A stretch of DNA of 64,000 nt from Heterodontus francisci (lineage: Eukaryota): contig NC_090404.1 of assembly GCF_036365525.1 (NCBI RefSeq), forward strand, positions 7,192,001-7,256,000. Reading direction: 5' to 3'. Below, piece after piece: positions 18,408 through 19,158 of the stretch. The position numbers and the translations under genes are program-made. Each line of letters starts with the position of its first letter. Position 1 is the stretch's first letter. The notes below the pieces were generated by a model. That model did no database searches and was not told the origin of the DNA. It was given only the letters and a program-made list of their open reading frames with translations.

Positions 18408-18738
18408 GTGTCCATTCGGATGTCGTGTTGACTCAGCCAGAGGCAGAGACCGGGAAACCTGGAGGCTCCCTGAGACTGACCTGTAAAACTAGTGGATTCA
18501 ATCTTGGCAACACCCGGATGTACTGGATATGACAGGTTCCCGGGCAGGGGCTGGAGTGGTTGGTTCACTACGATGCTTCATCCAGCAATAGTTACGCCCC
18601 AGAGATTAAGGATCGATTTACTGCGTCCAAAGACACTTCAAATAATATCTTCGCTTTGGCCATGAAGAACCTGAAGACCGAAGGCACCGCCATCTATTAC
18701 TGTGCAAGAAACATTACTACATTGGGTACACTGAGTGG
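18408..18738 (+). pseudogene. IGHV: Germline-joined IgM VH-D1-D2 segment with nonsense codon
   Basis: [27 protein letters not shown]...[12 protein letters not shown]...[11 protein letters not shown] at 18530-18532 (CGA>TGA). CAR runs directly into D-like ATTACTACATTGGGT and ACACTGAGTGG with no V-RSS. Confidence 0.93.
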
Positions 18739-18766
18739 CACAGCAGTTACTGTCAATACAAAAACT
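18739..18766 (+). promoter_or_regulatory. 12-RSS (3' RSS of D2)
   Basis: CACAGCA + 12-nt spacer GTTACTGTCAAT + ACAAAAACT. Confidence 0.92.
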
Positions 18767-19071
18767 CCCTCAGCGCTAATTGAAGAGTCTGGGTCAGTGC
18801 TTGCTTTTACAATCCAACTATACATACAGTGAATTTCTATTTGTGTCCAGCACTGTCCTACTAGACGGTTTATTATGGATAAACTGATGAATTATTCATT
18901 CATCAGTTGGTGATTTCAATAATTGCTGATATGTTGCTGAGTGAAATATAAAACATCAGGATAATGTACCAACAGTGAAAAGAATCATTAGCGCAGTTAG
19001 AATTTACAATTTTAATCTGGGATGTGGATGTTTAAAATAATGAGGGCTTTATCTCCATTCTGTGCAGAGCC

Positions 19072-19110
19072 AGTTATTGTGTCACCCTGCCCAGGGAATG
19101 TAACACTGTG
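19072..19110 (-). promoter_or_regulatory. 23-RSS of JH
   Basis: AGTTATTGT + 23-nt spacer + CACTGTG. Confidence 0.88.
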
Positions 19111-19158
19111 ACACCATGGACTACTGGGGACAAGGGACCATGGTGACGGTGACTGCAG
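19111..19158 (+). other. IGHJ: JH segment (TMDYWGQGTMVTVTA)
   Basis: WGQG motif; donor GTAAGG at 19159. Confidence 0.96.

What the first reader, a model, noticed from the sequence alone, without database searches (positions are those of the whole stretch)
18408..19158. Germline-prejoined V-D1-D2 awaiting only J: fossil of RAG activity in the germ line
Seen: YYCAR runs into AAC-ATTACTACATTGGGT-ACACTGAGTGG and then a 12-RSS; the V 23-RSS and both inter-segment spacers are gone; JH with its 23-RSS lies ~340 bp downstream. Known: shark IgM clusters are V-D1-D2-J, and germline-joined VD-J and VDJ clusters are described in horn shark. Inference: two coding joints were fixed in the germ line. The junction looks nearly untrimmed, with little or no N addition.
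Basis: partly seen in the sequence, partly recalled or inferred. Interest (0 to 1): 0.7.

Follow-up and report, generated by a model that had tools for sequence, protein, structure and literature searches.

The report
Half-joined, dead shark antibody gene
A shark IgM antibody gene has its V piece and both D pieces already fused in the genome, likely by the lymphocyte enzyme RAG acting in an ancestor's germ cells; the gene is now broken, sits in four tandem copies, and is a kind long described in sharks.

Summary
Observation confirmed. The 29 nt after V are D1 (12 of 13 nt match) and D2 (8 of 9); 0 of 2000 shuffles score as well. Four inner RSSs and both intervals (421-457 and 373-380 nt in 24 split sisters) are gone; D2's 12-RSS and J's 23-RSS are intact. 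The junction occurs in 4 copies about 105 kb apart that differ elsewhere by 0.2-1%, so it is inherited. Two corrections. The gene is not just 'awaiting J': V has a stop, the TM1 splice donor is lost, Cmu1 has a stop and Cmu4 a frameshift. The joints are lightly trimmed, with 2-5 added bases and a likely P pair. VDD-J clusters are described in horn shark since 1988, and the scan noted a sister copy before (e1-9871132). Ordinary in itself. The neighbours are better: 21 of 46 J-bearing clusters are rearranged, and two precise signal joints survive, one from a D1-to-J inversion and one joining an IgM D signal to a TCR alpha/delta-type V signal. I did not find such joints in three paper searches. 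Read-level confirmation was inconclusive.

The parts
18136..18144 (+). TATA-like box in a promoter stretch that resembles those of split sisters
18235..18280 (+). Leader exon (MSSAISLSLLLVFLS), donor GT at 18281
   Evidence: the 18280-18408 splice joint is seen in contigs of runs X6 and X8, which likely come from sister clusters
18408..18709 (+). IgM VH exon, ends in YYCAR, no RSS behind it
   Evidence: best named hits are shark Ig mu heavy chains
18530..18532 (+). In-frame TGA in FR2, shared by all four copies; sisters have CGA (16 of 24), CGG (7) or TGA (1)
18710..18714 (+). V-D1 coding joint: AACAT, either 5 added bases, or a mutated 3-nt V end plus 2 added bases
   Evidence: parsing is inference
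18715..18727 (+). D1 remnant, 12 of 13 nt identical to germline D1; 2 nt lost 5', 3' end intact
18728..18729 (+). D1-D2 coding joint: AC, palindromic to the untrimmed D1 end (likely P nucleotides)
   Evidence: inference, other readings open
18730..18738 (+). D2 remnant, 8 of 9 nt identical to the 3' part of germline D2
18739..18766 (+). D2 3' 12-RSS, same letters as in most split sisters
19072..19110 (-). J 23-RSS, intact
19111..19158 (+). JH segment (TMDYWGQGTMVTVTA), donor intact
25073..25369 (+). Cmu1 exon with TAG at 25165-25167
25582..25899 (+). Cmu2 exon, open
27748..28056 (+). Cmu3 exon, open
28535..28925 (+). Cmu4 and secretory tail, 1-nt frameshift near 28717
32114..32241 (+). TM1 exon; donor at 32242-32243 reads TT in all 4 copies, GT in 6 of 6 other clusters examined
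32386..32394 (+). TM2 exon (VK stop)

Best explanation
This is a shark IgM cluster whose V, D1 and D2 segments are fused in the genome while J is still separate, likely the product of two RAG cut-and-join steps in an ancestor's germ line, and it is now a pseudogene present in four tandem copies. Shown: the fusion, the loss of four RSSs and both intervals, the four copies, the lesions. Inferred: RAG paired V(23) with D1(12) and D1(22) with D2(12), opened hairpin ends, trimmed 0-4 nt per end, added a few bases and discarded the signal circles; the D2-J step did not happen in that cell. The allele was inherited, gained the V stop and the TM1 donor change, and was then copied with a 105-kb unit, after which the copies picked up different Cmu lesions. 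It likely does nothing now: a B cell could still join D2 to J, but the product would stop in FR2. Whether the gene died before or after joining cannot be told.
For: D matches beyond chance. All four cut points lie within 4 nt of the heptamer borders defined by 24 split sisters. The junction is found exactly 4 times in the assembly, in units 99.0-99.8% alike to the window with pair-specific lesions: Cmu1 TAG and Cmu4 frameshift in two copies, a different Cmu1 stop in the other two, an 8-nt deletion in one. The D remnants carry 2 substitutions shared by all copies, in line with a branch of about 0.065 changes per site. Introns are kept. Sister clusters show other RAG products that a chance deletion or a cDNA cannot make: a precise signal joint with inversion (L031) and a hybrid-joint inversion (L082). 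The kind is described for horn shark and skate (PMC2193153; PMC2193156).
Against: No split parent is left: the nearest split sisters differ by 11% in V and 9-10% in the D2-J stretch, so the exact trimming and N/P counts are ambiguous. AC can also be read as D2 trimmed by 2 with one T-to-C change, or as N bases. All evidence for inheritance comes from one assembly. RAG expression in germ cells was not tested. pN/pS of the Cmu exons (0.41) is like that of three split sisters (0.27-0.39), so decay is recent and an earlier working life of the joined form is not excluded.
Confidence: 0.93

Rival explanations
1. A somatic intermediate from one lymphocyte was captured in the assembly. VDD-J is a frequent partial product in nurse shark thymocytes.
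For: VDD-J is common in thymocytes (PMC2435157, passages). The tissue used for the assembly is not known to me.
Against: Four copies with the same junction but 0.2-1% differences and different Cmu lesions; no split form of this V in the assembly, nearest V 10% away; substitutions inside the D remnants shared by all copies.
Confidence: 0.02
2. Two ordinary deletions, without RAG, happened to fuse V, D1 and D2.
For: One copy (L004) does show an ordinary 8-nt deletion beside the junction.
Against: Four breakpoints all lie within 4 nt of heptamer borders on the coding side; there are added bases and no shared flanking homology; 18 distinct junction sets in the array obey the same borders.
Confidence: 0.01
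3. A junction made in a lymphocyte was copied into the germ line by a cDNA or by gene conversion.
For: It would give the same letters at the junction; nothing here excludes it for this one locus.
Against: Leader intron, D2-J interval, RSSs and all C introns are kept, so it is no retrocopy. Signal and hybrid joints in sister clusters need RAG cutting the chromosome itself.
Confidence: 0.02
4. The pre-joined cluster is, or recently was, a selected gene for a fast, restricted early antibody, and this copy still contributes.
For: V runs in frame through both D segments; pN/pS of Cmu is 0.41; the RSSs are intact; 3 of 3 fully joined VDJ sisters are in frame; joined genes are expressed in nurse shark pups (PMC2193156).
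Against: V stop and lost TM1 donor in 4 of 4 copies, a Cmu1 stop in 4 of 4. A past role stays open; a present protein-coding role does not.
Confidence: 0.02

Closest known systems
Partly germline-joined IgM clusters (VDD-J) of horn shark and little skate (Kokubu et al. 1988, not readable here; seen only as described in PMC2193153 and PMC2193156)
   Same: Same isotype, same V-D1-D2-J-Cmu cluster, same joined state, mixed with split and fully joined clusters. The genome is likely horn shark: proteins annotated as Heterodontus francisci lie on a contig of the same length as C34.
   Different: This copy is a pseudogene with four lesions and is present four times. I could not check whether this very junction was among the clones of 1988.
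Germline-joined NS4 (kappa-type) light chains of nurse shark (Lee et al. 2000, PMC2193156)
   Same: RSSs removed exactly, short trimming, possible P nucleotides, several independent events, some pseudogenes.
   Different: Heavy chain, two joints, incomplete. Lee et al. saw little sign of N addition; here 2-5 bases are unexplained, and sisters L035 and L084 carry long added stretches.
Nurse shark IgM1gj (PMC5192425, passages)
   Same: IgM rearranged in the germ line.
   Different: IgM1gj is fully joined, has three C domains and is expressed in neonates; this cluster is half joined, has four C exons and is broken.
Somatic VDD-J intermediates of nurse shark lymphocytes (Malecek et al. 2008, PMC2435157, passages)
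   Same: Same configuration; VDD-J is also the commonest joined state here (10 of 21 rearranged clusters, 7 distinct junctions).
   Different: Those are unique to single cells; this one is inherited and duplicated.

Membership tests
Germline partly joined IgM cluster (VDD-J) | IgM cluster anatomy: leader, VH, D1, D2, JH, Cmu1-4, secretory tail, TM exons | tested here: met
Germline partly joined IgM cluster (VDD-J) | V fused to D1 and D1 to D2; four inner RSSs and both intervals gone | tested here: met
   against 24 split sisters
Germline partly joined IgM cluster (VDD-J) | D2 3' 12-RSS and J 23-RSS kept, J unjoined | tested here: met
Germline partly joined IgM cluster (VDD-J) | Inherited, not somatic: junction older than a genomic duplication | tested here: met
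   4 copies, 99.0-99.8% alike, different lesions
Germline partly joined IgM cluster (VDD-J) | Junction present in reads of non-lymphoid DNA | tested here: inconclusive
   no listed contig bridges it; the tool says holes prove nothing; tissue of the runs unknown
RAG coding joint | Breaks at heptamer borders with short trimming | tested here: met
   0-4 nt lost per end
RAG coding joint | P nucleotides at an untrimmed end | tested here: inconclusive
   AC after GGGT fits, but a D2 substitution or N bases fit too
RAG coding joint | RAG active in germ cells | not testable with these tools
   only indirect: signal and hybrid joints in sister clusters
Functional joined gene such as IgM1gj | Complete VDJ | tested here: not met
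   J unjoined
Functional joined gene such as IgM1gj | Open frame and intact splice sites | tested here: not met
   V stop, Cmu1 stop, Cmu4 frameshift, TM1 donor lost
Processed pseudogene (retrocopy) | Introns lost | tested here: not met
   leader intron, J-C and C introns present
TCR alpha/delta-type V (for L049, whose family gave the foreign 23-RSS) | Closer to TCR alpha-like V than to VH | tested here: met
   40-42% to two proteins named TCR alpha chain-like (76-77 bits) against 24-36% to VH (32-52 bits); names are automatic, and 8 of the 10 hits looked up had no TCR name

The most novel reading that the evidence does not exclude
This joint is one of about 19 separate RAG scars in the germline IgM array, and the array keeps the by-products too. 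One cluster holds a precise signal joint and its coding joint together (D1-to-J inversion, L031). The V most similar to the window's ends in a precise signal joint between an IgM D1 12-RSS and a TCR alpha/delta-type V 23-RSS (L045-L048). That would be direct sequence evidence that RAG recombined across loci, Ig with TCR, in the germ line, an event that Lewis and Wu (2000) postulated for clusters but did not list as supported.
Probability: 0.5. Interest if true: 0.62.

Novelty: new member of a known kind. Interest (0 to 1): 0.3.

Why it matters
The locus itself adds one dead example to a class known since 1988. Its use is as a marker: four inherited copies of one junction settle germline against somatic origin from the assembly alone. 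The array around it matters more. Lee et al. 2000 wrote that the heavy-chain joints were hard to dissect and that the role of RAG, TdT and RSSs was unclear (PMC2193156). With 24 split and 21 rearranged clusters on one contig, trimming, P and N addition, inversion and cross-locus joining in the germ line can be scored and placed on a tree. Retained signal joints are the product that only RAG cutting the chromosome explains.

Tried and rejected
Reads: no RNA holder listed. Runs X1, X15, X6, X8 were laid on 18200-19250 and X1, X5, X6, X8 on 18672-18790; no listed contig covers 18712-18727 in any of the four runs. The tool warns that human-like records are filtered out and that a hole proves nothing, so this neither supports nor weakens the junction or its expression. 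X1 loose ends do carry the junction letters of sisters L032 and L040, but X1 may be the assembly's own sample. An alternative 22-spacer RSS at 18729 was rejected: its heptamer is made of D2 letters and it shares the nonamer of the true 12-RSS. Other RSS-like hits at 31144 and near 61990 lie in simple repeats and were not pursued. RSS-like hits behind TCR-type V L069 and L071 looked like chance. A reciprocal TCR V-D1 coding joint was sought: none among 5 of 5 V genes found. pN/pS did not date the loss of function. Kokubu 1988 and Ott 2021 are not held; of Hinds-Frey 1993 only the abstract is held. No supplements were read; they, and papers outside the library, may describe the signal joints.

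Full report
Setting. The window is G000:C34:7192001-7256000 in a 6.0-Gb genome. A J-segment pattern finds 46 hits, all on C34 between 3.6 and 13.9 Mb; this is a lower bound. Proteins annotated as Heterodontus francisci lie on a contig of the same length as C34, so the species is likely horn shark. The part of the V behind its stop matches shark Ig mu heavy chains best.

After YYCAR (V ends at 18709) come 29 nt, a 12-RSS at 18739-18766, a 23-RSS at 19072-19110 and J at 19111-19158. I extracted V ends, D1 and D2 from 24 split sister clusters. The 29 nt parse as AACAT, a D1 remnant (12 of 13 nt), AC and a D2 remnant (8 of 9 nt). The joint score was reached by 0 of 2000 shuffles and 0 of about 2000 random window 29-mers; the score was devised after seeing the data. 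The V-D1 interval (421-457 nt) and the D1-D2 interval (373-380 nt) of the sisters are absent.

Junction chemistry. D1 lost 2 nt at its 5' end and none at its 3' end. Sister V ends carry 3-4 nt beyond the point where the match stops, so AACAT is either 5 added bases after trimming, or a V end with one change plus 2 added bases. AC is the palindrome of the untrimmed D1 end and fits P nucleotides with D2 trimmed by 4; D2 trimmed by 2 with one substitution, or two N bases, also fit. The parent is gone: the nearest split sisters are 11% away in the V region and 9-10% in the D2-J stretch, so these counts stay ambiguous.

It is inherited. A 30-nt junction pattern occurs exactly 4 times in the assembly, at about 105-kb steps. 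Over roughly 30 kb the other three copies are 99.0-99.8% alike to the window. Two copies share a Cmu1 TAG and a Cmu4 frameshift, the other two a different Cmu1 stop, and one has an 8-nt deletion through the D2 end and heptamer. A single lymphocyte's junction cannot be duplicated and diverge in this way. Read data did not add to this (see Tried and rejected).

It is dead. V has TGA at 18530-18532 where 23 of 24 split sisters have an Arg codon. The TM1 donor reads TT in 4 of 4 copies and GT in 6 of 6 other clusters examined. Cmu1 has TAG at 25165 and Cmu4 a 1-nt frameshift. Against a long decay: pN/pS of the Cmu exons is 0.41, like three split sisters (0.27, 0.30, 0.39) and the joined cluster L006 (0.45). 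So the gene was under selection for most of its branch, and the order of joining and death is unknown.

The array. Of the 46 J-bearing clusters, 24 are split, 21 rearranged and 1 unclassified. The rearranged ones: VDD-J 10 (7 distinct junctions), VDJ 3 (all in frame), V-DD-J 2 (one probable, its V not located), V-DDJ 2, VD-D-J 1, V-DJ 1, hybrid-joint inversion 1, signal-joint inversion 1. That makes 18 distinct junction sets, which I take as separate events (inference). Trees of the V region (42 loci; L076, L080, L082, L085, L086 and three of four signal-joint copies left out; the long branch of L008 likely comes from an upstream insertion) and of the D2-J stretch (33 loci) scatter joined clusters among split ones. 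The window's clade has no split member: it groups with L005 and L011 (support 0.97; the pairing with L011 alone 0.67).

Signal joints. A search for a 12-RSS fused head to head to a second heptamer gives 5 hits, two events. In L031 the stretch from D1 to the J RSS is inverted against sister L018. The signal joint is exact, and the coding joint has both ends untrimmed with GG between them, the palindrome of the D1 end. L031's V is 3.6% from its nearest split sister, so the event is fairly recent. In L045-L048 an IgM V and its V-D1 interval end in the D1 12-RSS fused exactly to a 23-RSS that belongs to no IgM segment. That RSS and about 3.6 kb behind it match, at 90-95%, the 3' side of a V gene at C34:6.856 Mb, which is TCR alpha/delta-like. 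No D2, J or Cmu lies in 6.690-6.761 Mb, and none of 5 family members is joined to a D. The simplest reading is that a TCR-type V downstream of the cluster was joined to D1, the coding joint left on the excised circle and the signal joint stayed; inversion with later loss or reinsertion of a circle also fit. Caution: the four copies form a palindrome at 99.9% identity, which may be an assembly echo, and I could not test it with reads. Its V is 9% from any other V, so no unrearranged parent is in the assembly. L082 has the D1-D2 interval inverted with hybrid joints, as Lewis and Wu describe from Kokubu 1988.

What is known. Lewis and Wu 2000 (PMC2193153; parts 1-2 of 3 and legends read) list partly and fully assembled IgH clusters in horn shark and skate and one hybrid-joint inversion; they postulate intercluster signal joints and name only coding and hybrid joints as supported. 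Lee et al. [quoted passage not shown] PMC5192425 (passages) lists VD-J, VD-DJ and VDJ. PMC2435157 (passages) shows VDD-J as a frequent somatic intermediate and one interlocus clone in 58. PMC12227049 (passages) reports TCR alpha/delta-type V exons between IgH clusters and somatic VH-to-TCR delta trans-rearrangement. PMC2191167 (abstract only) found rearrangement within, not between, clusters. Kokubu 1988 and Ott 2021 were not held. Three searches (listings, plus the text of PMC2193153) showed no report of a retained germline signal joint in shark IgH, but the library lacks most subscription papers, so this is weak.

Earlier notes of this scan: the sister copy at 7.10 Mb was already reported with the same reading, and a germline signal joint between kappa clusters was noted in another genome. 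No note matched the IgM/TCR joint by sequence.

Verdict. A real germline VDD-J cluster, likely made by RAG, now a pseudogene in four copies: a new member of a known kind, interest 0.3. The signal joints nearby deserve their own follow-up.

Noticed in passing
L031/L092 = G000:C34:4251200-4252030: D1-to-J inversion that keeps an exact signal joint (D1 5' 12-RSS with J 23-RSS) and the coding joint with two likely P nucleotides.
   Followed up: partly
L045-L048 = G000:C34:6700525, 6713855, 6716847, 6730173: Exact signal joint between an IgM D1 12-RSS and a TCR alpha/delta-type V 23-RSS; IgM V left without D, J or C; four copies in a 99.9% palindrome that may be an assembly echo.
   Followed up: partly
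L082 = G000:C34:12957000-12963000: Cluster with a divergent VH and the D1-D2 interval inverted by hybrid joints, so D1 is flanked by two 12-RSSs; fits the case described from Kokubu 1988.
   Followed up: partly
L019, L021, L024, L029, L036, L037, L081 (D2 segments): In 7 of 24 split clusters D2 is 3-6 nt shorter at its 5' end, right at an intact heptamer. Could be open-and-shut RAG joints or slippage in the AT repeat.
   Followed up: no
L020 = G000:C34:7378472-7379873: D1 and D2 fused with V and J split, no added bases; 3-5% from split neighbours of the same tandem series, so a recent event.
   Followed up: partly
L006 = G000:C34:6762420-6763388: A VDD-J cluster with open V and Cmu1-4 frames and a variant J heptamer; the best candidate for a usable half-joined gene.
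   Followed up: partly
L028, L030, L035: All three fully joined VDJ clusters are in frame, which chance gives 1 time in 27.
   Followed up: no
window 52300-52590 and 54580-54870 (+): Two broken TCR alpha/delta-like V exons between the IgM clusters.
   Followed up: partly
window 60800-64000 (-): Cmu4 and TM1 of a second, split IgM cluster (L079) lying tail to tail with this one; the 105-kb unit holds one split and one joined cluster.
   Followed up: partly
L086 = G000:C34:10037400-10043400: A divergent VH with a stop, fused to the last bases of D2, J unjoined.
   Followed up: no
L085 = G000:C34:13881400-13887400: J with a 22-spacer RSS and no IgM V or D found by my motifs within 6 kb; unclassified.
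   Followed up: no
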